From a virus (Duplodnaviria; Caudoviricetes): DNA of 64,000 nucleotides. The DNA is taken from IMG/VR virus record IMGVR_UViG_2775506840_000002, positions 1 to 64,000 of that record. One strand, given 5' to 3'. The position numbers and the translations under genes were made by a program. The notes beneath the pieces were generated by a model. It searched no databases. It was not told the DNA's origin and saw nothing but the letters and a program-made list of their open reading frames with translations. Of the stretch, positions 4,653 to 36,856 are shown in pieces (position 1 is the first letter of the stretch; each line of letters begins with the position of its first letter).

Positions 4653-5521
4653 AGTACAACCTCCGTTCCTAAAATTTTAAGTGTAGCTGTTCCTACATAC
4701 CATCCTGAGAAATATAAACATTGTCCCTCATGTACATACATATCAAATATACAGTTTTTATTATTATTCACCGCTTTGTGACCAATCTCCATAACGGTTT
4801 TCATAGTCATGTACGTTGGTGAACCTATGTTATGTATATTAGTATTTAAAAGAAGCCCTTCCCAACTTGTATAAGAGCTATTTATTCCATGACTAGATGA
4901 TAGTGTAGCCTGTACATCTGGATTGGTGTAAACAGTAATTCTTGAATTATCTGTACCATTTGTAGTTAGGAAACAAACTCTAATTACACCTGACCTTTTA
5001 GCAATAAATCTTCCCATGTAGCTCTGAGCACCATTGCTAAAAGCATAAGCTGTACATAAGGTAGCTAACACATTGCTTGCATGTGGTTGATACACTTTTA
5101 GTCCACTTGTCTCTGCTGTAATATGATTTTTAATAACATCTCTAGCTGAATTTACTGCAGTAGTAATATTTGTCTGAGTTGTACTCATACTTTGATTAAG
5201 ATTATCTAATTTAGCACCTCTAGCATCTGTCCAAACACTTTTTTGTGGCAGTCCATTAATGACATTTAAAATAGCTGTTTTAGCAGAATTAATCCATTCA
5301 TTAATCAAAGTATTAAGCGGTTTAGAAGTATCTGCATTAACTCTTTCGTTGACAACCCGTCTAACATCACCCGAAACATCTATACCCGTTATTTTCTGAT
5401 CTATACTTTTAATTTTTTCTTCTGCACTCGTTCCATCATCCATAAATACAACGTCTGCAGATGTATGAGGATGAAGCACATCTCCATTATCAGCCTGAAG
5501 TTCTCCTTTTAATTTAGCCAT
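4649..5521 (-). CDS. Distal tail fibre / receptor-binding protein
   Basis: N-terminal HPHTSADVVF motif shared with 54348..55316; beta-rich C-terminus. Confidence 0.7.
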   Translation of the reverse strand: MAKLKGELQADNGDVLHPHTSADVVFMDDGTSAEEKIKSIDQKITGIDVSGDVRRVVNERVNADTSKPLNTLINEWINSAKTAILNVINGLPQKSVWTDARGAKLDNLNQSMSTTQTNITTAVNSARDVIKNHITAETSGLKVYQPHASNVLATLCTAYAFSNGAQSYMGRFIAKRSGVIRVCFLTTNGTDNSRITVYTNPDVQATLSSSHGINSSYTSWEGLLLNTNIHNIGSPTYMTMKTVMEIGHKAVNNNKNCIFDMYVHEGQCLYFSGWYVGTATLKILGTEVVL

Positions 5522-6131: not shown

Positions 6132-6812
6132 TTATTCTTTTATTTCAATCCCCATATTAGGGCTTACTTTTATAATGCCATTGCTACTTCCACCACTTTG
6201 TCTACTTGTAACTTTAAAATACATCTTCCCCTTTACTCTATCTTGAATAGGAATATCTGAACCTTCTGGTATAACATATGGACTAGATAAATTCTTGATT
6301 TGATTGATTAACTCAGGGTGTGCGACTGGATTAATATTATGATTCTCAATGTCTTCTATAGTTGCATATACTAAACTTTGATTAATTGTGGCACTCACAT
6401 TTATGGCATTTCCTATAATCGTTTCAATAGCCACAAACTTTTCTAATATTTGACTACCACCACTAGAGGGAATATATTCAGCTAATGCTCCTGCATTACC
6501 ATAGCAATAGAGTATTTCTCCTAAGTCTGGATCTGTTGCATAAAGCCCTAACTCTCTCCAATAAAACCCCGTGTCAATGTCCTGATTCGTAAAGGTACCA
6601 CCTATACTTGCAATACCTCCAGTGAGTACTTTTATGTTTGATATAGGAATATCTAGTTTTTTACTTTTTAAATCTGTCAATTCTAAAATAGATTGACTCC
6701 CTAGTTCACCATCACCTATGGCAAGCTTAGTAAAGTTAAGTTTCGTACCAACTTGTGCCTTTGATTGCAGCACCTTTCCTCTTGTTGTAAAATCTACACT
6801 TCCAAAAGCCAT
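6132..6812 (-). CDS. Proximal tail fibre / tail-collar protein
   Basis: TTRGKVLQSKAQ..FTKLAIGDG and GFYWRELGLYATDPDLGEILYCY motifs; follows gpI. Confidence 0.8.
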   Translation of the reverse strand: MAFGSVDFTTRGKVLQSKAQVGTKLNFTKLAIGDGELGSQSILELTDLKSKKLDIPISNIKVLTGGIASIGGTFTNQDIDTGFYWRELGLYATDPDLGEILYCYGNAGALAEYIPSSGGSQILEKFVAIETIIGNAINVSATINQSLVYATIEDIENHNINPVAHPELINQIKNLSSPYVIPEGSDIPIQDRVKGKMYFKVTSRQSGGSSNGIIKVSPNMGIEIKE

Positions 6813-6813
6813 T

Positions 6814-7368
6814 TCATCCCTCCTGTCTAATGATTATTTTGTCACCTGTATGTACTATAAACCCATAATAAAGATTTAGATTTGCACTCATCATCACTAA
6901 TACTTCATGAAGTCGTGTACTTTTCCTTTTTACTGCTTCTACTGCTTTATGAAATTGCTCTGCAAGTTCTCCTGTTACTTTCGTATTGGTTGTAAGTACT
7001 CTAAAATGATAAGGTTGTCCATCATACTCATACCATTCTTCTATTTGGCCATCTCCAAAATAGTCTGCTATAACTTGCTCTATAGCATAATTAGTACCAA
7101 GTGTTCTGAATACCTTATTGCAATTTCTAATTATATTTCTCTTGATATCTGCATTCGCATTAGCATCATACCAAAATATATTTCTTTCTATTGCAATGGT
7201 ATCTAATACTTCTTCTGGTAAGTCCTCTAGTTGTGTCCTTATTAAACTTCTACCGGTATCTATTTCATTTAATATCTCTGTTAGTACTAAACTCATTGCC
7301 TGTGTTGTCTTATCCTGCTTCATTGCTGATGTTTGCAATGTGAGTACATTAACATTACCTAGTTCCAT
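6814..7368 (-). CDS. Tail protein I (P2 gpI-like)
   Basis: GTNYAIEQVI..IEEWYEYDGQPYHFRV motif. Confidence 0.85.
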   Translation of the reverse strand: MELGNVNVLTLQTSAMKQDKTTQAMSLVLTEILNEIDTGRSLIRTQLEDLPEEVLDTIAIERNIFWYDANANADIKRNIIRNCNKVFRTLGTNYAIEQVIADYFGDGQIEEWYEYDGQPYHFRVLTTNTKVTGELAEQFHKAVEAVKRKSTRLHEVLVMMSANLNLYYGFIVHTGDKIIIRQEG

Positions 7369-7372
7369 TAAA

Positions 7373-8485
7373 TCATCCTTTCAATCCTCCATAAATAATA
7401 CTTTTAGTCGTCACTTTAGGAACTTGTGTCTCTTGAATTTCTGTATATATAGGTGATGTAATATCAACTTTATATGCTCCTGCATTTAAAATAAGTTGTT
7501 TTAGATAATCTGGATTAACTGATCTGCCTATTTTAGAATCCTGCCACTTAATATATTCATTTACAGACTCAACAACCTTAGCCTTTATAATGTTTTCACT
7601 TGCTGCATTATCTAAAGCAATGTAATAAGTTAAAGAAATACTATATTCTGATACTGTAGGCGCTGCTACACTCACTTTATCAGTCATTGGTCTTGCCTTT
7701 TTGCTATTACAAGCATTCTTTATTCTTTCTATAATAGCTTCTGATGGCAACTGGCCATTTTTCATTAGTGCTGTTATTAGTATTTCTCCTGGTCTAGGAG
7801 AAGTTACTATAACATCATCAATATCTGTATCTGCACTTTTAGCATGATAGATATAACCTAACTCATGTCCTGCTGTAGATATTTTAGCTGCTGCTAATCG
7901 AATTCTTTCTCTATAACCACTCCAAATATCTACTCCATTATCATCCTCTTCCTCTTCTGATCCACCACTGCTAGTTGTAATATTTGATACGCTCCCAACA
8001 AAAGGAATCATATCAACCAATGTCTTTATCTGTCCTGGTGCAAACCCATTATGATTCACTCCTGCTACAGTTGCCACTACATCTACTTCTAATGATGCAG
8101 TATTCGCGCTAATAAACGTATCAGAAAGAGTTTCAAAGAATAACAACCCATCTGGTGTAACTCTAGTTCCTTTAGGAATATGAACTGTCTGCATTTGAGC
8201 ACTAGATAATCTAAATTCTACTCTACACATTGCCTTTTGAGCTTGTAAGCGTTTTGTATCATATTCTATTCCTATAGCATCAAGAACTTGTCCTTTAGCA
8301 TAGGTAAGTAAGTTTTGTTTAGCACTTTCATTAATTGCATTATAGATACCAACTATAAGCTGTACTTCTTGCTCTAAAAAGATACGTCTTTCATCTCCTG
8401 GATAAAGTACTTCTCCTAATGCTTGTTGAAACTGCACTAGTATTTCATTATATAATTGTTTTGCATCTACTTTTACAAAATTCAA
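7373..8485 (-). CDS. Baseplate J/gp47 protein
   Basis: QNLLTYAKGQVLDAIG, GGSEEE, STAG..GY and RPMTDKV motifs. Confidence 0.9.
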   Translation of the reverse strand: MNFVKVDAKQLYNEILVQFQQALGEVLYPGDERRIFLEQEVQLIVGIYNAINESAKQNLLTYAKGQVLDAIGIEYDTKRLQAQKAMCRVEFRLSSAQMQTVHIPKGTRVTPDGLLFFETLSDTFISANTASLEVDVVATVAGVNHNGFAPGQIKTLVDMIPFVGSVSNITTSSGGSEEEEDDNGVDIWSGYRERIRLAAAKISTAGHELGYIYHAKSADTDIDDVIVTSPRPGEILITALMKNGQLPSEAIIERIKNACNSKKARPMTDKVSVAAPTVSEYSISLTYYIALDNAASENIIKAKVVESVNEYIKWQDSKIGRSVNPDYLKQLILNAGAYKVDITSPIYTEIQETQVPKVTTKSIIYGGLKG

Positions 8486-20962: not shown

Positions 20963-22792
20963 CTATAGGCCTTTTGATAATACTCTTCTTTTCTTCTTAA
21001 TTATTTTTTGCTCATACTTTGTTCCAGTAACACCTTGTTTTTTTAATAACTCAAAATTAGGATTAAAAATCTTAATAGCAGCTTGAGCATAGTTCCTTAC
21101 ATCTAGTGATTCATTTCTTATTGATGTACTCTTCTTTTCCCAGTAAATTTTCTTTCCTCTTTTTGTCATTTCTTCTACTTGTACCTCAGAAGTAAGACCT
21201 TTGAAATAATCCTCAGTATAACCTCGTATGTATTCTCCCTCTTCCCCCATAGGAAAATGGCAATATCCATCATTAACTCCACCTATATTTTCAAGCTTTA
21301 ATCTCGATTGTAACATTTCTTTACCATCATCTACACCAAGTATAAATAGTACTGCTTTATTTCTTTTAGTATATGTTTGATGATAGATAAGAGGAATGCC
21401 TACACCACCTTTACCTTTGATAGCATAAATGCGCCTATGCTCTCTAACTTTTGTGAAATCATAAACATCGGATGTATAGTGGCCTCCTGAGTCTATACAT
21501 GTACATGATACTCTTATTCCTGAACCATCTTTAAATCTAAATGTAGTTTGCAAATAATCATCTAACTGATCCCATACTGCCTTTTGTCCTGGGTCACCAT
21601 AGAATACTTTATATTCTATCCCCCAGCTCTCCTCACCAACACCCCATCCAACAATCTCACATTCAAGACGATTATCTTGTGTGTCTACTCCGGCGGTAAG
21701 AACTAATACATCATCTGGAACTTGTGCTTCATAAGTTTCCCTCCTATCTTTAATCACTTCATAATCAAGTTGCTCCTCCTTGGCTTTCTCATATGGCAAC
21801 CCTAACCTCGTATTAACAAATACCCTCATAAGTTCTTCTTTTTTCTTTGCCTTAACATATTCATCGGCTAACCTATCCCATGGTACCCATGGACTAGAAA
21901 AAGAAGTTAAATGAAAACCTCTTGTACGTCTTTCTGGATACTTAGCAATCCATTTGCCTTTTTCTCTTTTCCATTCATATTCAGTATGTACAGAACCACA
22001 GTAGGGGCACGTTAATGTGTAGTTGTTAGGATTAAATAGATCTATCGTAATAGCTACATACTCACCACATGAAATACATTTGTGATGCCACTCTTCTTGT
22101 GTAGACTCTTCATACTCAAATTCTATACGAGATTCACCTTTTACAAGCGGTGATGATACCATTACTACTTTTCTATTCCAAAAGTTTGATGTACGCCCAT
22201 CTGCTAATTGTGATGGATCTCCTCCTGTTCCTGCACTAGGTGGGTAAGCATCTACCTCATCCATTAGGATTACTCTTAATGGTGCAGAACGTAAACTTGC
22301 TTCACTATTTGCACCAGCTATTTTAAGCCATCCACCAGGAAACATCTTCATTAAAGTATTATTTTTACCATCACGCTTACTTGAATCACTTATCTTATTA
22401 GTTAAACAGGGAGTATCTCTAACCATACTCATGACACGTGTTTTTGCAAAATCCTTACATAAATCAAGTTGTGGCATTACATACATCATAGGAGATGGTT
22501 CTATATCTATAAAATATCCAAGCATATTCAGTAAGAATTCTGTTTTTCCAAGCTGAATACCACACATGATGACTGTTTTTTCTGTCCTTACATCACTTAT
22601 TGAATCCATCATTTCACGCTGATAAGGAGCTCTATCAGTATTCCACTTTCCTTTTTCTGCAGAAGCTTCATCAGAAAGCATACGATTCTCATCTGCCCAT
22701 TGTGATATAGTCATTTTCTTTGGCGGTGCAATCATTCTTACTATTTCTTCAAGTACTATCTTAGATAAGTTAACTTGCGACTTTTTACTCAT
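20963..22792 (-). CDS. Terminase large subunit (lambda gpA family)
   Basis: QLGKTE Walker A, LMDEVD Walker B, GVDTQ, DSGGH and RNESLD motifs. Confidence 0.95.
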   Translation of the reverse strand: MSKKSQVNLSKIVLEEIVRMIAPPKKMTISQWADENRMLSDEASAEKGKWNTDRAPYQREMMDSISDVRTEKTVIMCGIQLGKTEFLLNMLGYFIDIEPSPMMYVMPQLDLCKDFAKTRVMSMVRDTPCLTNKISDSSKRDGKNNTLMKMFPGGWLKIAGANSEASLRSAPLRVILMDEVDAYPPSAGTGGDPSQLADGRTSNFWNRKVVMVSSPLVKGESRIEFEYEESTQEEWHHKCISCGEYVAITIDLFNPNNYTLTCPYCGSVHTEYEWKREKGKWIAKYPERRTRGFHLTSFSSPWVPWDRLADEYVKAKKKEELMRVFVNTRLGLPYEKAKEEQLDYEVIKDRRETYEAQVPDDVLVLTAGVDTQDNRLECEIVGWGVGEESWGIEYKVFYGDPGQKAVWDQLDDYLQTTFRFKDGSGIRVSCTCIDSGGHYTSDVYDFTKVREHRRIYAIKGKGGVGIPLIYHQTYTKRNKAVLFILGVDDGKEMLQSRLKLENIGGVNDGYCHFPMGEEGEYIRGYTEDYFKGLTSEVQVEEMTKRGKKIYWEKKSTSIRNESLDVRNYAQAAIKIFNPNFELLKKQGVTGTKYEQKIIKKKRRVLSKGL

Positions 22793-23318
22793 CACTATCA
22801 ACCTTTGGCTCAATTTCATTTATATCTGTTTTTGATAGTTCTTCTAATGCTGCATAAATTTCTTTCGTAAGTATGTCTTGCACCGTTATTAAATTATCTA
22901 TTCCTACTATGCTTGGCGAAACTTTATTAGGTAGCGCTAACATCTTTGATCTAAAATTAATGATTAATCCAGCATATAGCTGTTTAAATTCCTCGACGTT
23001 AACCAAGTCACCCGTAAGCTGCATCAATTCAAGTTCTGCTTTTTTTCTTTTTATTTTTTCAAGCTTTAGTTTCTCATTTTCAGATTCCTTCTTGACCAGG
23101 TTAACATTTTTGTCTTCATTAATTTCTTCTATGTATTCATGATATTTTTGTAATGTTTCAATAAGCTTGTAACTTCCGTTTTTGTAGCGAGGTATTTTAC
23201 CCTCTTGAACCATTTGCCTTATCCTGCGAGGGTCAACTCGGAATATTTCAGCCAATACTTGTGTACCAACGATTGTATCACTATTTATTTCAGTCTTTTT
23301 TTGTTTTGGCTCAGCCAT
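22785..23318 (-). CDS. Terminase small subunit (Nu1-like)
   Basis: HTH LAEIFRVDPRRIRQM plus coiled coil; overlaps terL. Confidence 0.85.
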   Translation of the reverse strand: MAEPKQKKTEINSDTIVGTQVLAEIFRVDPRRIRQMVQEGKIPRYKNGSYKLIETLQKYHEYIEEINEDKNVNLVKKESENEKLKLEKIKRKKAELELMQLTGDLVNVEEFKQLYAGLIINFRSKMLALPNKVSPSIVGIDNLITVQDILTKEIYAALEELSKTDINEIEPKVDSDE

Positions 23319-23384
23319 TATTTGTATCACCCTTTCAGTAGACATTTTAGGAAGGAAACACCTTCTAAAAAAAAATTAGTAACT

Positions 23385-23445
23385 AGAGGAATATCGGGCC
23401 TCGCGAGACCCGCACTTCACCTAACTCCCTCACAGTACCTTTTAC
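23385..23445. other. Putative cos/packaging site
   Basis: GC-rich quasi-palindrome gggcctcgcgagaccc upstream of terS in otherwise AT-rich DNA. Confidence 0.45.
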
Positions 23446-23519
23446 ATTAAAAGAGGGCTCTATCAAGCCCCATTAATTACCTTTTAAACGACTAATTTAT
23501 TAACAAACTATTACCACTC

Positions 23520-23620
23520 TATTAATGTACACATAAACCCTTGTTCCTATTGCAATAACACTAGTTAATGTCAACATTAATCCCTAAAGTAAAGTAGTAA
23601 GTTAAAATACACTGTTACTG
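23520..23620 (+). repeat. Ori/iteron-like array copy 1
   Basis: About 21-bp units ending in attaatccctaaagtaaag; resembles reverse complement of 36300-36460. Confidence 0.65.
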
Positions 23621-23684
23621 CTTAAAAGTCAAGAACTATTTCAACACTCTTTAAAACAGAAAAAATTATTTTTAAAACAGTATT

Positions 23685-24494
23685 TTAATACATAGCTATC
23701 TTATCAATAGACTTATATAAAGTATTCAATAGTTCTTCTGTTATATTTCTAACTTCTTGGTATTGAGATATAACCTCACTCTCTATTTCATCATATCCAA
23801 ATTCTCTATTTATCTGAAGATTACCACATACACGTTCTAACTCTTTGTGACAATCTATTGAAAACCATTGATCAGCGCTCACTGCCTCTTCACATATAAA
23901 TCCATTCTTTACTTGATCCTCTAATTCATATATTTCTACATCTATTGTCGTCCAGTCAAACTCTTCTCCTCTATAAAAATGAATATATTTAATATCCCAC
24001 AGTGAAATATTTGTCATACTTTCCATTTGCAATAAAACTTTCCTAATCTTCTCTTTAAAATCATCTGACATGGTTACTTTAAGCTCATCATAGCCATTTT
24101 TACATAGATTAGTCTCTATATGTTGTTTGATAGAATAATATATACTTCTAGTTCCAGTTGCTAGTATTTTGTCATATTTATTTAAAAGAACTATATATCT
24201 CTCTAATTTTGTACGCATTTTTTTATTCAAGTATATCCTTCTATCTACGCTTATATATTTTTCTATTTCCCTTATGCTATCTGTAATCTCCATAGTTTCA
24301 GATTTATATACCTTTTCTAACTCTTTTCCTAGAGGTATTAGAATATCTTGTACTATCATTTGTTTATTTGCTAACTTAAGCTCATGCCTCTTCACCCTAA
24401 TGCTACTCATATAAGTTACTCCACCACCAATAACAACTCCTACCAACGGTAATGTAGCCTTAATAAGTTCCATAGTATCTTTTGTATCACTCAT
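23685..24494 (-). CDS. Hypothetical cargo protein with N-terminal TM anchor
   Basis: LPLVGVVIGGGVTY hydrophobic segment, RBS. Confidence 0.7.
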   Translation of the reverse strand: MSDTKDTMELIKATLPLVGVVIGGGVTYMSSIRVKRHELKLANKQMIVQDILIPLGKELEKVYKSETMEITDSIREIEKYISVDRRIYLNKKMRTKLERYIVLLNKYDKILATGTRSIYYSIKQHIETNLCKNGYDELKVTMSDDFKEKIRKVLLQMESMTNISLWDIKYIHFYRGEEFDWTTIDVEIYELEDQVKNGFICEEAVSADQWFSIDCHKELERVCGNLQINREFGYDEIESEVISQYQEVRNITEELLNTLYKSIDKIAMY

Positions 24495-24739
24495 TCCTAT
24501 ACCCCCTCGTTATTTTAACTAGAGTATAAAATATGTTTTATTTAAAGTAAACTATTTTCATTTACTCCCCTACATAATAAAAAGAGATAAGGCGTACACT
24601 CTTATCTCTCTTCCTCTTCTCCAAATAGCTCAGTATAATTTGGAAATACAATAGCTTCTTGTTATTTGTTGATAATACTATCTTAGCAGCCTCACCCCTT
24701 TCTTGATTATTTAAATGCGTACTATAAAGAATCTATGAA

Positions 24740-24850
24740 AAATTAGTTTTTGCAACATTAACTCTAGTTATTGCAACATAATGTATGCAATAATCCCTAT
24801 AGTAAAGTATATAGATAGTAAAGTAGTTAGCTAAAATACTACAACAACAT
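24740..24850 (+). repeat. Ori/iteron-like array copy 2
   Basis: gtttttgcaacattaactctagttattg matches the initiator coding strand gtttctgcaacaaaaactctagttattg. Confidence 0.75.
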
Positions 24851-24888
24851 TATTTAGTCAAGCTCTTATTAAAATAACTTTCAGACAC

Positions 24889-24997
24889 AAAAAAGCTACT
24901 AGGTTCACCAGTTCCTAATAGCTTTTTATACTTCAACTTAATGACGATTCGAAGGAAAATACAATGGACTTTGTAATGTTAGTACCTTTTGCTTTTA
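24889..24997 (-). ncRNA. Candidate structured RNA plus terminator, copy B
   Basis: Core 57/61 nt identical to 27285-27345, followed by the same terminator stem. Confidence 0.5.
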
Positions 24998-25024
24998 CAT
25001 ATATTATGAAGAACATGTGAAGAA

Positions 25025-25325
25025 TCAGTTTTTGCAACAAAAGCCCTAGTTAGTGTAACAAAAACCCCAATTAATGTTGCAATAACCCCTATTAATGTTG
25101 TATTAATGCAACATTATGTTGCAAAAACCCTAGTTAGTGTTACATTGAAGTATAGTTTTTACATCTTATCGTTACAAAAACCCTAGTTAATGTTACATTA
25201 TGTATGCATTAATCCCTAAAGTAAAGAAAAGAAGAGTAAAGAAAAGTAAAGTAGAAGAAAGCAGTAGCAAAAATAGTTTCTGCACCATTTTGCTACAATA
25301 ACTAAATACAGCTTGCCGCTACTTG
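25025..25325 (+). repeat. Ori/iteron-like array copy 3 (expanded)
   Basis: Several 21-bp units (gttagtgtaacaaaaacccca and variants), then aatccctaaagtaaag, an A-rich tract and aatacagct, colinear with the initiator linker. Confidence 0.8.
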
Positions 25326-25411
25326 CTATTTAAGCAATAAAAAAGAGCTATAGTAGCTCTTTAGAAATCACTCTCCGGTTATTACTTTAGTTCTTCCTGA
25401 TATTCTTCGCT

Positions 25412-26083
25412 TTATTGCTTTTCTTTTATTAATTCATCTACTGCAAATTCTATAGACATTAAATGTTTTATTCTACGTTTATCAAAGTAAAAGTCATGAT
25501 ATATGTAGACTATTGTAATAAGACTCACTATAATAATAAATACTCTATACATCCATTGGGAATTACTGATACTTTCCAACTCAGCTGTTAACTTATTTTG
25601 TATTTCATCTTTTTCTCTATATATTTTATCACGATTTTGAATATATGTATTAGTGTCTTTTTCTGTAACATACTTTATATCATTAATAACTTTCTTGCTA
25701 CTTTCATATTCCTCATTAATTTTATCTAATCGTTGTTCAAATGTTTTGGACTCGCTTAACTTTGCATTAAACTCATTATAATCTTGATATACTTGGGCCA
25801 TAACTATACCCAGTACAGCAACTAGTATAGAAAATGCACCTATAACTAGTGATGTAAGATCATTAGATTTACAGCTATCTATTTTATATGTGACAATGGA
25901 GTTTATCTTCTCTAAGTCTTTTTCGCGCCACTCATCTCGCTCATTTGATATTAACTCCTTGACATGTTGAATCGTGTCATCATTCAACTTAGGTTTCTCA
26001 ACTCTAATATTAATTTTTTTCTTTTTTTTAAACATCAACTTATCTAGTACGTTATCTGTAATACTATAATAATCGTTATTCAT
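25412..26083 (-). CDS. Hypothetical 2-TM coiled-coil cargo protein
   Basis: Two hydrophobic segments flanking a coiled coil; terminator at 25337-25362. Confidence 0.7.
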   Translation of the reverse strand: MNNDYYSITDNVLDKLMFKKKKKINIRVEKPKLNDDTIQHVKELISNERDEWREKDLEKINSIVTYKIDSCKSNDLTSLVIGAFSILVAVLGIVMAQVYQDYNEFNAKLSESKTFEQRLDKINEEYESSKKVINDIKYVTEKDTNTYIQNRDKIYREKDEIQNKLTAELESISNSQWMYRVFIIIVSLITIVYIYHDFYFDKRRIKHLMSIEFAVDELIKEKQ

Positions 26084-26238
26084 AATACCTCTCCTCTACA
26101 TCTTTAATAATTTTAATATTTTTTAATAAGTAATTAATTTATAAATGCTAGATTTTATATTAATTTACTTATAATTACTTCCGCACATCTATTTACTTGA
26201 ATATGCCCTTATTTATTTTAATATAATTATTTCTCTTA

Positions 26239-26958
26239 TTAAGATTTTTGGTTAACCACATTTTTATAATTATTTATAAAACGAGTTGTTTGTAATAACA
26301 AATTTTCATTTGCCTTCTCAAATTCAACAGGCCAAACATCTGAACAAGAATTACTATGAATATATTGCAGTGCTTCTATTAACTCTTTAGATTCACTCTT
26401 ATCTTCTAATAATATTTTCAAAGTAAAATATATAGCTACCGATTTGCTTCTATTAACAATTTCCTCACCCTTTTTCAAATTACTGTTTAGTACTTTTAAT
26501 TCTTCTATCTCTTCTGCGCTAAATTTATATGTACGGCCTTTTTTCTTCATTCCATGAATCTCTTGCCTTATACGTTCATTCTTCCTACATCCATAATAAT
26601 ATAAGTTTATATCTGAACAATACTCACCTATTAAGCTGGCAATTCTCTCAGTAAACTTTATTCGTGTTTCTATTTCTTGACTATTTTTATTTTCTTCTTG
26701 AATTTTTAGAGTTAAATGTTTATTTTCTTCTTGAATATTTCTAGTTTGATTTGTAGTAATTTTCAATACACTTAACGTCACTAATACGCTAAACATTGAT
26801 GGCATAAAACCTCCCCAAAAACCTATCCAGTCGTTACTTGTACTAATATTACTCATGCTTATATGTGTTGTTAGTAAATATACCAAAGCAGGAGTACTTA
26901 GCATTGTAATTATTATAATTACTATTAATATCTTTATATATTTCTCATATTCTTTCAC
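26239..26958 (-). CDS. Hypothetical membrane cargo protein
   Basis: Two N-terminal TM segments with DWIGFWGG motif. Confidence 0.7.
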   Translation of the reverse strand: MKEYEKYIKILIVIIIITMLSTPALVYLLTTHISMSNISTSNDWIGFWGGFMPSMFSVLVTLSVLKITTNQTRNIQEENKHLTLKIQEENKNSQEIETRIKFTERIASLIGEYCSDINLYYYGCRKNERIRQEIHGMKKKGRTYKFSAEEIEELKVLNSNLKKGEEIVNRSKSVAIYFTLKILLEDKSESKELIEALQYIHSNSCSDVWPVEFEKANENLLLQTTRFINNYKNVVNQKS

Positions 26959-27231: not shown

Positions 27232-27350
27232 AAAAAAAGCTACTAGGAGCATATACTTCCTAATAGCTTTTTTAATTTTATTTCCTTCAACTTAATGACG
27301 ATACGAAGATAAATACAATGGACTTTGTAATGTTAGTGCCTTTTGTTTTA
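27232..27350 (-). ncRNA. Candidate structured RNA plus terminator, copy A (late-leader)
   Basis: Duplicate of 24889-24997; starts just after the predicted promoter. Confidence 0.5.
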
Positions 27351-27443: not shown

Positions 27444-27893
27444 TTATAGTATATTTATTAGTTCTAATATAACTGGCTTTCTTCGTTTTGCCATACCATC
27501 TTTAGTTATATCAAACACTTCTCCTGCTTTTTCAAGAGTGTATCTCTTGAAGTATATTAACTCAACTAACTTTCTTTCGTCCTCTTTAAGTAAGCTTAGT
27601 GCATTATCAACCTTTCTTATGTATCTCTCTTTATTTCTAAGTAGTCTATTCATATCATTAATCCTATCAGGAAGATTCTCTTCACGATCTATTACTTCAT
27701 TCTCTACATTTGAATTAAAGGCATTGGTTGCACTTGAAGGTTTAATCTTATTATTACCTGCCCCCTTTATGCCTACTACATCATTTAGTTCCTCTATATC
27801 TATTTTAATGTTTTCTATTTCAACTTTGACTTTTGGATAGTTATAGAGTATACCCTCAACTCTTGCATAATTATTGTCTTTTGCACCTTTCAT
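27444..27893 (-). CDS. RinA/ArpU-family late transcription regulator
   Basis: VEGILYNY and SNVENEV motifs plus C-terminal region-4-like HTH; position before packaging genes. Confidence 0.8.
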   Translation of the reverse strand: MKGAKDNNYARVEGILYNYPKVKVEIENIKIDIEELNDVVGIKGAGNNKIKPSSATNAFNSNVENEVIDREENLPDRINDMNRLLRNKERYIRKVDNALSLLKEDERKLVELIYFKRYTLEKAGEVFDITKDGMAKRRKPVILELINIL

Positions 27894-30416: not shown

Positions 30417-30815
30417 TTAGACTTTCAGCAACTCTTTGTGTTCATGAATATTTCCAACCACCTTACCCTTAACACTCCAATAATCTAAATCAGTTCTAAA
30501 ATATGTGCTTTCTATCCATTTAATAGTGAATGTTGCATTTTCAAATAAAACATAACATATTGATTCTTCTCCATGCCTACTTGTAAACAATAGTATGTCA
30601 CCTTCATAGATTTCTTTACCATTCTTATCTTTTAAGCCTGTATACTGCATAAGTTCAACATCATCACTAATAATCAACGTAAGTAACTCAAATGTTTCAT
30701 TCTCAGCATCACTAAACGCAGTCTTTTTAACCTATTCGCCAAATTTCACTATCCCTTCATGTGGCAATATTTTTTTCTGATTCTTTTCCCACGCTCTAAA
30801 CTTAATCTCTCTCAT
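30417..30815 (-). pseudogene. YopX-family gene with one in-frame TAG at 30732-30734
   Basis: MREIKFRAW N-terminus in frame with LMQYTGLKDKNGKEIYEGDI..GNIHE. Confidence 0.8.
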
Positions 30816-35190: not shown

Positions 35191-36051
35191 TCACCCCATT
35201 AATTCTTTGAGCATTTCCTCATTTTTGCTTTTAGCCTTAGTTCTTCTTACACTTTCCTCTGGCATCACTACTTGCATCACCATATCTTCTAATCTATTTA
35301 TAAGTCTATAATCGAATCCTAGCTTATTCATTGGTATGTTAGATGTTATAAGAGTCACTCTCTTATTCGTAAGCCTTCTATTGATAATTCTGTAGAAAAT
35401 ATTGTTTATCCAATCCTTATTTCCCTCAACACCAATATCATCAAGTATCAATACAGGTATGGTTACAAACTCTTCAACAAGTGCTTCTTCACTGCTACCG
35501 CTTTTGTCATTCCATGAATCTCTTATCTTACCCAGTAGATCAACAGTAGTAATAAATCTAACATGCTGCTTTTTGTACTTAACAAGTGAATTTCCAATAC
35601 TTACTGCAAGTCTTGTCTTTCCACTTCCAGCTTCTTTTGAGTAAAAGTAAAGTCCTCTACCAAGTTCCTGCATTTTTTCAAATTTATCTACATACTTCTT
35701 GGCTACACTTACGGCTCTACTCGCCTTTACTTTAGACTCTTCTAGCTTATAAATATCAATATCGAAGTCCTCTATTGCTAAGTTTTGAAACTCTTTTGGT
35801 ATCTGTGCAAAATCAAGCTTGTTATAGATAACTTGCTCTTCATAGCACTTACACTTTTTAGCAAATAACCCCTCCGGTTTATTAACTAAGTAATGTCCTG
35901 AACCATCACATATACCATAAGGGCATCCACATGTTCTTTCTGGCTCAGTCTGTGCTTCTTCATTGAATTCCGTGCTGCTCAGCATATTTTGCGAATTCAT
36001 CTTCAACTGGTTCGCTATCCTCTGTATTTGGTCCTGTGTTATTTGCCCCAT
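35191..36051 (-). CDS. DnaC/IstB-like helicase loader ATPase
   Basis: GSGKT Walker A, LILDDIG Walker B, ITSN. Confidence 0.9.
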   Translation of the reverse strand: MGQITQDQIQRIANQLKMNSQNMLSSTEFNEEAQTEPERTCGCPYGICDGSGHYLVNKPEGLFAKKCKCYEEQVIYNKLDFAQIPKEFQNLAIEDFDIDIYKLEESKVKASRAVSVAKKYVDKFEKMQELGRGLYFYSKEAGSGKTRLAVSIGNSLVKYKKQHVRFITTVDLLGKIRDSWNDKSGSSEEALVEEFVTIPVLILDDIGVEGNKDWINNIFYRIINRRLTNKRVTLITSNIPMNKLGFDYRLINRLEDMVMQVVMPEESVRRTKAKSKNEEMLKELMG

Positions 36052-36856
36052 TTCCTTTCACCTTCTTTTGTTCTTTCTTAAGCTCTTGGTCAGCTATGTA
36101 TTGATTGAGAGTAAGTATTTTCTCTTTAGTACATCTTTCAAGTATGCTTTTTGTGTACTTGAGGTTTCTTACTCCATTCTCAATGGTTTCTGTTAAAGAT
36201 TTTTCTATTAGCTCAATCTCCATACCATCTTCTATATAGCTTGTTAACATTTCAATTTCATATTGACTAGGCATACGTCCAAAAGTACTCTCTAGCATAG
36301 TCGCAATTCTTTTAATGTTAGTAGCAGCTGTATTCTCCTCACTACTACTTTCCTTTTCTTTCTTTTTACTTTCTATTTTCTTTACTTTACTTTGGGGATT
36401 ACTGCTAGCATTAACTTCGGTTTTTGTAACAATAACTAGAGTTTTTGTTGCAGAAACTTCATTTTTGGTTAAAAGTAGGTATTCTTCATAAATTTCCATT
36501 GCGCTTCTACGTCCTATTGCGAATATAAATCTCTGTTGAATTCCATGAGAAGTTAAGATTTTGTACTTGTCATACATTTGCTGATTAAATAACCCCCACT
36601 CTAAACATGAGGTTATTACTGCATTAACTATAGTTTCTGCTGCATTAACTCGTTTACTAAAGATTAATTGCTCCTTTTTAGTCCACTCTAAGTAGTAACC
36701 ACTTTTGTAGATTGACTGAAGTAACTTTATAAAAATTGCAAATCCTACAAGTCCGTGTTCACTTTCTACAAGTTCTAGTTCATCATCTTTTCCAGCAGCA
36801 ACATCCAGTGGAAAGTATTCTAACCCATCCTTTTTAGGCCTTGCCAATTCATTCAC
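35960..36856 (-). CDS. Replication initiator (DUF4373 N-terminus, DnaD-like C-terminus) with internal iteron-like segment at about 36300-36460
   Basis: ARPKKDGLEYFPLDV, ILTSHGIQQRF and YTKSILERC motifs; 21-bp repeats in the linker. Confidence 0.88.
   Translation of the reverse strand: MNELARPKKDGLEYFPLDVAAGKDDELELVESEHGLVGFAIFIKLLQSIYKSGYYLEWTKKEQLIFSKRVNAAETIVNAVITSCLEWGLFNQQMYDKYKILTSHGIQQRFIFAIGRRSAMEIYEEYLLLTKNEVSATKTLVIVTKTEVNASSNPQSKVKKIESKKKEKESSSEENTAATNIKRIATMLESTFGRMPSQYEIEMLTSYIEDGMEIELIEKSLTETIENGVRNLKYTKSILERCTKEKILTLNQYIADQELKKEQKKVKGNGANNTGPNTEDSEPVEDEFAKYAEQHGIQ

What the first reader, a model, noticed from the sequence alone, without database searches (positions are those of the whole stretch)
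23520..25325. Three non-coding, divergent copies of the phage's own origin-like segment placed 11-13 kb from the initiator gene (possible decoy origins or antisense)
Seen: the initiator linker (coding strand of 36300-36460) reads gtttctgcaacaaaaactcta gttattgttacaaaaaccgaa gttaatgctagcagt aatccccaaagtaaag, then an A-rich tract and aatacagctgctact. The same colinear layout occurs three times in intergenic DNA: 23520-23620, 24740-24850 and an expanded array at 25025-25325. All are inverted relative to the gene, differ in unit sequence and number, and lack other rep sequence. Established: lambdoid origins lie inside the initiator gene, and cloned phage origins can inhibit phage by titration (lactococcal Per). 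Inference: a protein-free panel of decoy iterons against related superinfecting phages, a copy-number control, or auxiliary origins. Leftward late transcription across them would also make RNA antisense to rep mRNA.
Basis: partly seen in the sequence, partly recalled or inferred. Interest (0 to 1): 0.85.

Follow-up and report, generated by a model that had tools for sequence, protein, structure and literature searches.

The report
Spare replication-origin copies beside phage packaging genes
A prophage carries three gene-free copies of the replication origin that normally sits inside its replication-starter gene, placed where early genes meet late genes, a layout best known from Bacillus phage SPP1 and so interesting but not a new kind of element.

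Summary
Three noncoding + strand segments (c1 23516-23625, c2 24735-24850, c3 25025-25325) are homologous to the origin-like linker of the minus-strand initiator gene (36320-36466). Alignment scores are 14-17 sd above dinucleotide shuffles. Only the origin part was copied; no other rep sequence flanks them.

Each copy has dyad iterons, an AATCCCTAAAGTAAAG box and an (AAAGK)n tract. c3 is intact and expanded, while c1 and c2 are eroded.

Related prophages keep one or two such copies at the same place, beside the late-activator gene and terS: G001, G011, G023, G045, G040 and G052. Across IMG/VR the layout is rare, with a distant second copy in 4 of 75 records examined.

A near-identical prophage (G052) has two copies and different accessory genes. 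Its breakpoints lie at the copies' edges.

The best reading (confidence 0.55) is secondary binding sites for the phage's own initiator, that is oriR-type second origins as in SPP1. The copies were multiplied by cassette recombination. The decoy and antisense readings are not favoured.

This scan has reported comparable second-origin copies in unrelated phages. I class this as a new variant of a known kind.

The parts
35960..36856 (-). Initiator gene (298 aa): Lin1244_N (DUF4373) N-terminal domain plus a DnaB_2/DnaD C-terminal domain
   Evidence: Pfam gives Lin1244_N E 2e-28 and DnaB_2 E 6.6e-12. PHROG phrog_2562 'replication initiation protein' scores E 9.5e-65. NCBIfam DnaD_dom also matches.
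36320..36466 (-). Gene-internal origin-like segment: iterons at 36417-36460, box at 36385-36400, A/G-rich pentamer tract at about 36350-36384, hairpin at 36320-36349
   Evidence: Sequence read. R1 scores 50.4 bits, E 2.2e-14. Iteron matrix hits score 23.1 and 25.8. The hairpin folds at dG -10.9 with z -4.3.
36609..36652 (-). Second pair of iteron-like dyads inside the N-terminal coding part of the initiator gene
   Evidence: Matrix hits of 16.9-19.0. Weak R1 iteron-only matches lie at the equivalent place in many other records.
23516..23625 (+). c1: eroded noncoding origin copy next to the cos-like site. It has three diverged iterons, an intact box (23579-23594) and a truncated tract.
   Evidence: R1 scores 36.0 bits. 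It lacks 57 nt (one iteron and most of the tract) that are present in the G052 counterpart, which scores 63.2 bits.
24735..24850 (+). c2: noncoding origin copy with two iterons of the phage's own type, a box with one mismatch (24792-24807) and a decayed tract
   Evidence: R1 scores 29.7 bits. Matrix hits score 23.7 and 13.0. Its iteron part best matches the own rep, rank 1 of 51.
25025..25325 (+). c3: expanded, best-preserved noncoding copy. It has five or more iterons (25027-25184, one pair inverted), a box at 25211-25226, an intact purine-rich tract to about 25270 and an inverted repeat at 25263-25296.
   Evidence: Matrix hits score 27.0, 27.1, 21.0, 16.7 and 15.6. R1 scores 36.2 plus 12.5 bits. 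The tract is 80% purine, against 75% in rep.
24889..24997 (.). Duplicate of the segment just downstream of the late-activator gene (27233-27350), including its bidirectional terminator-like hairpin. It separates c3 from c2.
   Evidence: Local alignment score 134. The hairpin folds at dG -17.2 with z -3.2.
25342..25362 (-). Terminator-like hairpin after orf223, upstream of c3 for leftward transcription
24575..24609 (-). Terminator-like hairpin between c2 and orf269
   Evidence: listed on the + strand; minus strand, dG -15.8, followed by a U run.
23454..23471 (-). Terminator-like hairpin after c1, before the cos-like site and terS
23685..24494 (-). orf269: accessory gene between c2 and c1. It is a membrane-anchored protein with no known family.
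   Evidence: No hits in Pfam, PHROGs, PADLOC or NCBIfam. It is 97.3% identical in G052.
25412..26958 (-). orf223 and orf239: accessory genes between the late activator and c3. They are absent from G052, which has 917 other letters there.
27444..27893 (-). Sigma-70 region 4 / RinA-like late activator gene
   Evidence: Pfam Sigma70_r4 E 3.7e-5. phrog_36 'transcriptional regulator' E 1.9e-20. It is 40% identical to the G001 counterpart.
20963..23345 (-). terS (22785-23345) and gpA-type terL (20963-22819), the start of the late operon
23384..23423 (.). G+C-rich palindrome between terS and c1, a candidate cos site
   Evidence: Inverted repeat I10. It lies within the stretch that is 99% identical in G052. 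The cos function is inferred from the gpA-type terminase.

Best explanation
The three segments are noncoding copies of just the origin part of the phage's DUF4373/DnaD-type initiator gene. That part comprises dyad iterons about 21 bp apart, the box AATCCCTAAAGTAAAG, an A/G-rich (AAAGK)n tract and a short hairpin.

They sit at the early/late boundary, between the late-activator gene and cos/terS. A small clade of related prophages keeps one to three such copies at that same place.

Most likely they are secondary binding sites for the phage's own initiator, that is oriR-type second origins. In SPP1 the initiator binds both the gene-internal oriL and a noncoding oriR about 13 kb away among late-region morons. 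Initiator bound at oriR is proposed to stall the fork and trigger the switch to recombination-driven concatemer synthesis. This phage has the matching toolkit: a RecT-like annealase, a Holliday-junction resolvase and an SbcC-like protein.

c3 is probably the working copy here. c1 and c2 look like redundant, eroding copies.

The number three is a by-product of recombination between related phages that exchange accessory-gene cassettes using these copies as joints.

What is shown: the homology, the noncoding state, the conserved position, the copy-number variation and the breakpoints at copy edges.

What is inferred: initiator binding, origin firing or fork arrest, and which copy is active.
For: 1. 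Homology is real and limited to the origin segment.

2. The full anatomy persists without coding constraint.
- All five full noncoding copies (c1, c3, and those of G001, G040 and G011) read CCCTAAAG, which would be a stop in the rep frame; the G011 box begins T instead of A.
- The G023 and G045 noncoding copies instead keep CCCCAAAG.
- The pentamer tract is intact in c3 and in the G001, G011, G023 and G052 copies.

3. The position recurs.
- In G001 the copy lies between the late activator and HNH-terS.
- In G011, G023, G045 and G040 it lies directly upstream of the sigma/ArpU-like activator that precedes terS-terL.
- G052 has two copies in the same interval.

4. Iterons match the phage's own initiator type.
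- In the window, matrix hits fall in c2, c3 and rep only, plus 2 borderline hits elsewhere where shuffles give 1-7.
- In G052 both noncoding copies carry two strong hits of 21-24 bits.
- The iteron parts of c2 and c3 rank the own rep 1st and 2nd of 51.

5. Different copies are intact in the two near-identical prophages. In the window c3 is intact and c1 is eroded. In G052 c1' scores 63 bits. This fits selection for at least one good copy.

6. SPP1 precedent (PMC6316719 passages of sections 3.5 and 3.7; PMC3485210 abstract and introduction). I confirmed the SPP1 gene-38 / 4.9-kb repeat match myself.

7. RecT-like, HJ-resolvase and SbcC-like genes are present.
Against: - No binding or replication data exist.
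- The layout is rare. A distant second full copy (E at or below 1e-7) was found in only 4 of 75 IMG/VR records holding this origin type. G002, a complete relative with a 55% identical initiator, has none. The extra copy is therefore dispensable.
- Copy number and sequence change between prophages whose flanks are 97-99% identical. c1 differs from its G052 counterpart by 57 nt of indel and 6 substitutions in 101 aligned positions, whereas orf269 is 97.3% identical. That looks like weak constraint.
- Orientation relative to rep is not conserved: inverted in the window and G001, direct in G011, G023 and G045.
- The iteron parts of c1 and of the G001, G011 and G023 noncoding copies do not rank their own rep highly (18 of 51, 30, 28 and 26 of 51).
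- The tract is only slightly more AT-rich than the genome (0.72 against 0.67), so calling it an unwinding element is weak.
- In SPP1 itself the role of oriR is a proposal, not a demonstrated fact.
Confidence: 0.55

Rival explanations
1. Neutral recombination scars. The origin core is a stretch of homology shared by many phages. Exchanges of accessory-gene cassettes at the early/late boundary leave copies behind, and these copies do nothing and decay.
For: - All three structural differences between the window and G052 have breakpoints at copy edges: 23415/23536, 24775 joined to 25174, and 25344.
- c3 is separated from c2 by a duplicate of the activator-downstream segment, which is the signature of an unequal exchange.
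- c1 and c2 are eroded.
- The extra copy is absent from most phages with this origin type.
Against: - Scars would not be expected to keep iteron phasing, box and pentamer tract intact in at least one copy per genome.
- They would not be expected to occupy the same junction in lineages with different activators and terminases.
- No copy was found anywhere else in these genomes.
Confidence: 0.22
2. Regulatory or copy-control sites. Initiator bound next to the late-activator gene and the late operon couples late transcription to replication. Alternatively, it pairs with the rep copy (handcuffing) to limit initiation, for example in the lysogen.
For: - The copy always lies within about 30-200 bp of the late-activator gene. 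In G011 and G040 it abuts that gene's ribosome-binding site.
- Extra iteron arrays that restrain initiation are established for iteron plasmids such as P1 incA (recalled, not checked here).
Against: - Control arrays need only iterons, yet these copies also keep the box and tract.
- The side of the activator gene and the orientation vary between lineages.
Confidence: 0.1
3. Decoy origins against superinfecting relatives (Per-like). Variant: incoming initiators fire them and amplify the neighbouring accessory genes.
For: - Cloned phage origins inhibit related phages (PMC6356513 passages).
- The copies differ in iteron sequence, and c1 best matches other phages' origins.
- The copies flank membrane-protein accessory genes of unknown role.
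Against: - The Per effect is described as copy-number dependent, whereas these copies are single-copy in a lysogen.
- c2 and c3 match the phage's own allele rather than foreign ones.
- The accessory genes hit no defence model convincingly.
Confidence: 0.08
4. Antisense control. Leftward transcripts through the inverted copies pair with the rep mRNA.
For: Predicted duplex energies are -72.5, -90.0 and -117.3 kcal/mol, against shuffled means of -34.4, -30.7 and -51.7. c1 lies in the 3' untranslated part of orf269, before the terminator.
Against: - Terminator-like hairpins precede c3 and c2.
- The longest exact runs shared with rep are only 11-14 nt.
- In G011, G023 and G045 the copy has the same orientation as rep, so no antisense RNA would arise there.
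Confidence: 0.04

Closest known systems
Bacillus phage SPP1 oriL / oriR with origin-binding protein gp38 (G38P)
   Same: - One origin lies inside the initiator gene, and a diverged noncoding copy with the same layout (direct repeats plus an A-rich part) lies about 12-13 kb away.
- The noncoding copy sits in a segment with three moron genes bracketed by transcription signals (PMC6316719, sections 3.5 and 3.7).
- I confirmed the sequence match between gene 38 and position 4876-4953 of the SPP1 record.
- RecT-type recombinase and HJ resolvase genes are present in both phages.
   Different: - The initiators are unrelated at sequence level (BLASTP E 1.1). gp38 hits Pfam Phg_2220_C; this protein hits Lin1244_N plus DnaB_2.
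- There are three copies here against one in SPP1.
- The copies are inverted relative to the gene here, but co-oriented in SPP1.
- This is a temperate cos-type phage, whereas SPP1 is a lytic pac phage.
- Here the copies lie at the early/late junction next to cos, not between head genes.
Iteron control loci of plasmids and plasmid prophages (for example P1 incA; recalled, not checked here)
   Same: Extra arrays of initiator-binding repeats lie outside the origin proper. c3 has more iterons than the gene-internal origin.
   Different: Control loci are iteron-only. These copies also carry the box, the pentamer tract and the hairpin. The phage integrates by a serine recombinase rather than living as a plasmid.
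Per (phage-encoded resistance): cloned origins of lactococcal and Streptococcus thermophilus phages, such as the 302-bp Sfi21 element
   Same: A noncoding, origin-like piece of phage DNA that can bind replication proteins of related phages.
   Different: Per is an effect of multicopy plasmids and depends on copy number (PMC6356513 passage). Here the copies are natural, single-copy per genome and mostly match the phage's own allele.
Lambda ori inside gene O (recalled)
   Same: An iteron origin embedded in the linker-coding part of the initiator gene.
   Different: Lambda has no second noncoding copy, and its initiator belongs to a different family.

Membership tests
SPP1-type two-origin layout (oriL in the initiator gene plus noncoding oriR) | Repeats plus an A-rich part inside the initiator gene | tested here: met
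SPP1-type two-origin layout (oriL in the initiator gene plus noncoding oriR) | A second, noncoding copy with the same internal organisation | tested here: met
SPP1-type two-origin layout (oriL in the initiator gene plus noncoding oriR) | The second copy lies about 12-13 kb away among moron genes bracketed by transcription signals | tested here: met
   The distance is 11.1-12.9 kb. There are three accessory ORFs and four terminator-like hairpins. SPP1 description.
SPP1-type two-origin layout (oriL in the initiator gene plus noncoding oriR) | The initiator binds both copies | not testable with these tools
   Needs EMSA or ChIP. The only indirect evidence is iteron matrix matches.
SPP1-type two-origin layout (oriL in the initiator gene plus noncoding oriR) | Initiator homologous to gp38 | tested here: not met
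   BLASTP E 1.1. The Pfam families differ.
SPP1-type two-origin layout (oriL in the initiator gene plus noncoding oriR) | The two copies are co-oriented, as in SPP1 | tested here: not met
   Inverted in the window and G001. Co-oriented in G011, G023 and G045. SPP1 is co-oriented.
Lin1244_N (DUF4373) initiator genes with a gene-internal origin | A Lin1244_N domain followed by a linker that carries iterons, CAAAGTAAAG and (AAAGK)n | tested here: met
   for the window. Among other box-holding ORFs, 7 of 8 have Lin1244_N. Of 20 loci found only through N-terminal peptides, 16 have an R1 match at the linker.
Iteron-only copy-control locus (P1 incA type) | An array of iterons without the rest of the origin | tested here: not met
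   Each copy also has the box and at least a remnant of the tract.
Per-type decoy origin | Present in many copies per cell | tested here: not met
   There are three single-copy segments in an integrated prophage. Copy-number dependence is described.
Per-type decoy origin | Inhibits replication of related phages | not testable with these tools
   Needs plating assays.
Decayed initiator pseudogene | Flanks retain other parts of the rep gene | tested here: not met
   blastn similarity is confined to 36466-36342. tblastn outside the linker gives E of 0.45 or worse.

The most novel reading that the evidence does not exclude
In this clade the noncoding origin copies may be the fixed joints of a cassette-exchange system at the early/late boundary. 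The origin core is shared by Lin1244_N initiator genes across several phyla. It would double as a portable recombination-and-replication module, so that accessory genes travel with an initiator-responsive origin. A resident prophage could then amplify those genes, or soak up initiator, when a related phage infects.
Probability: 0.1. Interest if true: 0.75.

Novelty: new variant of a known kind. Interest (0 to 1): 0.45.

Why it matters
What a second origin does in a phage is still unsettled, even for SPP1. In SPP1 the idea that initiator bound at oriR stalls the fork and starts concatemer synthesis remains a proposal.

This locus offers a natural series for testing that question:
- 0 copies (G002)
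- 1 copy (G001, G011, G023)
- 2 copies (G052)
- 3 copies (the window)

All of these have one initiator subfamily but different orientations, so replication, packaging and late expression could be compared across them.

The survey also yields a practical by-product. Lin1244_N/DUF4373 initiator genes, which are very common in phages of Firmicutes and are also seen in records labelled Bacteroidota, Lentisphaerae and Gammaproteobacteria, carry a recognisable DNA signature: iterons, then CAAAGTAAAG, then (AAAGK)n. This signature marks their origin and is conserved at the nucleotide level. My three literature searches found no description of it.

Tried and rejected
**Searches that found nothing**
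- BLAST of the 2-kb region and of c3 against the 50,697 phage records found no match.
- No RNA holder is listed for the region. The two DNA runs are contigs from one sample and show the same variant as G052, so they add no independent case and no depth profile.
- The accessory genes orf269, orf223 and orf239 gave nothing convincing in Pfam, PHROGs, PADLOC or NCBIfam. The best was CARF7 at E 5.9e-4 and 17 bits for orf239. I ran no further search on them.
- Literature searches found no description of the box or of two origins in DUF4373 phages: 'DUF4373' with 'origin of replication' and 'phage' gave 0 papers; the 13-mers of the box gave 5 papers, the 4 listed all unrelated; 'replisome organizer', 'second origin' and 'iterons' gave only SPP1 and unrelated systems. 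Subscription journals and supplements were not searchable, so this does not prove absence. PMC3445015 was opened but gave nothing I used.

**Hypotheses tested and dropped**
- Decayed whole rep pseudogenes: rejected.
- Each copy matching a different foreign initiator allele: not supported for c2 and c3, open for c1.
- A conserved, covarying hairpin after the tract: the rep copy folds well (z -4.3), but the c3 region does not stand out (z -0.05). I make no claim here.
- The tract as a classic AT-rich unwinding element: only 0.72 AT against 0.67 for the window, so this is left as inference.

**Left unexamined**
- G028 has two weaker R1 matches (E 1.6e-6 and 2.7e-4) that I did not examine.
- L179 has an R1 match 4.5 kb upstream of its initiator gene that I did not follow up.
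- L160 (G053) shows the same pair of matches as G001 and is not counted as a separate case.
- G054 was listed as limited and not scored, and I left it.

**Papers: what I saw**
- PMC6316719: passages returned by 'find' (sections 3.1, 3.3, 3.5, 3.7 and the Figure 1 legend).
- PMC3485210: abstract and introduction passages.
- PMC6356513: one introduction passage and one discussion passage.
- Recalled only, not seen: Missich et al. 1997 on G38P binding, P1 incA, lambda ori in gene O, and the original lactococcal Per papers.
Full report
**Setting**

The window is the first 64 kb of a 91,927-base provirus record. The genes of the prophage concerned run on the minus strand, in this order:
- SbcC-like protein, RecT-like annealase and a metallo-hydrolase
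- the initiator at 35960-36856 (Pfam Lin1244_N/DUF4373 plus DnaB_2/DnaD)
- a DnaC-like loader and a Holliday-junction resolvase
- small early genes
- a sigma-70-region-4/RinA-like late activator (27444-27893)
- three accessory ORFs of no known family
- terS (22785-23345) and a gpA-type terL

A G+C-rich palindrome at 23384-23423, just upstream of terS, is a plausible cos site (inferred).

**The observation**

Each aligns on the + strand to the coding (minus) strand of the initiator linker.
- Local scores are 56, 64 and 73. Shuffle means are 19-22, sd about 3, and shuffle maxima 32-35, so z is 14-17. The opposite orientation scores 17-31.
- A 16-mer, AATCCCYAAAGTAAAG, occurs four times in the window at up to 2 mismatches, once in each copy. 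The expectation is 0.12.
- No ORF of 40 aa or more overlaps the segments.
- Similarity to rep ends at 36466-36342. Nothing else of the gene is detectable in the flanks by blastn or tblastn.

They are therefore copies of the origin segment alone, not decayed genes.

**Anatomy**

Each copy has the following parts.
- Partly palindromic iterons of the form AGTTTnTG-N4-CAAAAACT, about 21 bp apart
- The box
- A purine-rich tract with a five-base period, (AAAGK)n
- In rep, a hairpin

With a weight matrix made from six iterons, 16 of 18 hits in the 64-kb window fall in c2, c3, the rep linker and a second pair inside the N-terminal coding part of rep (36609-36652). The other two hits are at threshold, where shuffles give 1-7.

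The three copies differ in state of preservation.
- c3 has at least five strong iterons, an intact box and an intact tract (80% purine, as in rep).
- c2 has two iterons, one mismatch in the box and a decayed tract.
- c1 has diverged iterons and a truncated tract.

**A widespread origin core**

The box is not peculiar to this phage.
- An exact scan of IMG/VR found 102 stretches holding it.
- 62 of these lie in frame 0 (reading NPQSKVK) of an open frame of 200 codons or more. Several lie in frame +1 (reading IPKVK), and a handful are noncoding.
- 55 distinct sequences have the pentamer tract downstream, with variable iterons upstream.
- Of eight such ORFs tested, seven have a Lin1244_N domain, with varied C-termini.

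In a sample drawn independently of the box, 20 genome-contig loci were found only through N-terminal peptides. A sequence-only model of the core (R1) finds a match at the linker in 16 of the 20. These include records labelled Muribaculaceae, Lentisphaeraceae and Paraperlucidibaca. In the sequences printed, the constant part is CAAAGTAAAG plus pentamers, with Ser mostly AGT and Val GTA.

This points to constraint on the DNA rather than on the peptide. The gene-internal origin of DUF4373 initiators is thus a conserved cis element. Three literature searches found no description of it.

**Extra copies in relatives**

I searched whole records that hold this origin type with R1.
- Among the first 50 records, a distant second full-length match occurs in G001, G011, G023 and G045 (E 1e-10 to 2e-13).
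- Among 25 further records, none has a second match at E of 1e-7 or better.
- G002, a complete genome whose initiator is 55% identical, has none.

All four positive records have initiators 46-60% identical to the window's. In every case the extra copy is noncoding and sits at the early/late junction.
- In G001 it lies between the activator homologue (40% identical) and HNH-terS, inverted relative to rep.
- In G011, G023 and G045 it lies directly upstream of a sigma/ArpU-like activator that precedes terS-terL, in the same orientation as rep.
- In the fragment G040 the copy is likewise just upstream of an activator-like gene preceding terS-terL, but its rep gene is not on the contig.
- In G024 the initiator is split, and the single origin lies in the gap between the two ORFs.

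**A near-identical prophage with two copies**

A genome contigs record titled Holtiella tumoricola strain CC70A (L159, G052) encodes a 99% identical initiator. Its flanks are 97-99% identical to the window. Between the activator and terS it differs in three ways.
- 780-891 other letters lie between the cos-like site and c1.
- c2 is fused to the end of c3 (24775 joined to 25174).
- 917 other letters replace orf223 and orf239.

Every breakpoint lies at the edge of an origin copy. G052's c1' scores 63.2 bits, with four iterons and a long tract. The window's c1 lacks 57 of those letters. Both G052 copies carry two strong iterons of the own-rep type.

In the window, the 109 bases between c3 and c2 duplicate the segment just downstream of the activator gene. 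So 'terminator segment plus origin copy', the arrangement seen in G001, is present twice.

The simplest history is unequal exchange between related phages. Each would have carried one copy at the junction but different accessory cassettes. The fact that different copies are intact in the two prophages fits selection for at least one good copy.

**Interpretation**

The closest known case is SPP1.
- oriL lies inside gene 38.
- A noncoding oriR with the same layout lies about 13 kb away, in a segment with three morons bracketed by transcription signals.
- gp38 binds both origins.
- gp38 bound at oriR is proposed to stall the fork and trigger recombination-dependent concatemer synthesis (PMC6316719 and PMC3485210 passages).

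I verified the SPP1 sequence match, and that the two SPP1 copies are co-oriented. gp38 and this initiator share no detectable sequence similarity and hit different Pfam families, so this is an analogue and not a member of the same protein family.

I therefore read the copies as secondary initiator-binding, oriR-type elements (confidence 0.55). c3 is the likely active one.

**Rivals**

- Neutral recombination scars: 0.22.
- Regulatory or handcuffing sites next to the late activator: 0.10.
- Per-like decoys or infection-triggered amplification: 0.08. This is weakened by single-copy dosage and by c2 and c3 matching the own allele.
- Antisense control: 0.04. Pairing is thermodynamically possible. 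It is undercut by terminator-like hairpins before c3 and c2 and by the direct orientation in G011, G023 and G045.

**Evidence against my reading, stated in full**

- The layout is rare (4 of 75 records) and dispensable (G002).
- The copies evolve quickly by indels.
- Orientation varies.
- Several noncoding copies do not rank their own rep's iterons highly: c1 18th of 51, G001 30th, G011 28th and G023 26th.
- The tract is barely more AT-rich than the genome.
- Nothing about binding or firing has been measured.

**Novelty**

This is a new variant of a known kind. It is an SPP1-like two-origin layout in an unrelated initiator family, with up to three copies, a fixed site at the early/late junction and visible cassette exchange at the copies. 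Earlier follow-ups in this scan reported comparable second-origin copies in T1-like, Dhillonvirus and Streptomyces phages. I did not test those.

Noticed in passing
window 36350-36400 (-) and loci L160-L178: Lin1244_N/DUF4373 initiator genes from several phyla share a nucleotide-level origin core at the linker: iterons, then CAAAGTAAAG, then (AAAGK)n. Ser is mostly AGT and Val GTA. Of 20 loci found through N-terminal peptides alone, 16 have a model match there. Three literature searches found no description of it.
   Followed up: partly
window 36609-36652 (-): A second pair of iteron-like dyads lies inside the part of the initiator gene that codes for the N-terminal domain. Weak iteron-only matches lie about 200-250 bp upstream of the main origin in many other records.
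   Followed up: partly
window 23384-23423: A G+C-rich palindrome (around GGGCCTCGCGAGACCC) lies in 33% G+C DNA between terS and c1. It falls within the stretch that is 99% identical in G052. It is a likely cos site for the gpA-type terminase.
   Followed up: no
window 24889-24997 and 27233-27350: The segment downstream of the late-activator gene, including a bidirectional terminator-like hairpin, is duplicated between c3 and c2. This marks an unequal exchange.
   Followed up: yes
L158 (G024) 6600-7700: In a complete 35-kb phage the initiator is split after the Lin1244_N domain (136-aa ORF). The single origin lies in the noncoding gap where the linker would be.
   Followed up: partly
L179 2401-2508: A record titled Lentilactobacillus kosonis has a noncoding-looking origin-core match 4.5 kb upstream of its Lin1244_N gene. 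It may be another case of a detached or second origin.
   Followed up: no
window 23685-24494, 25412-26083, 26239-26958: Three accessory ORFs with predicted membrane segments and no family assignment sit between the origin copies. Two of them are replaced by other DNA in the near-identical prophage G052.
   Followed up: partly
G028 26661-26764 and 30623-30648: Two weaker origin-core matches lie 4 kb apart in one IMG/VR provirus. I did not examine them.
   Followed up: no
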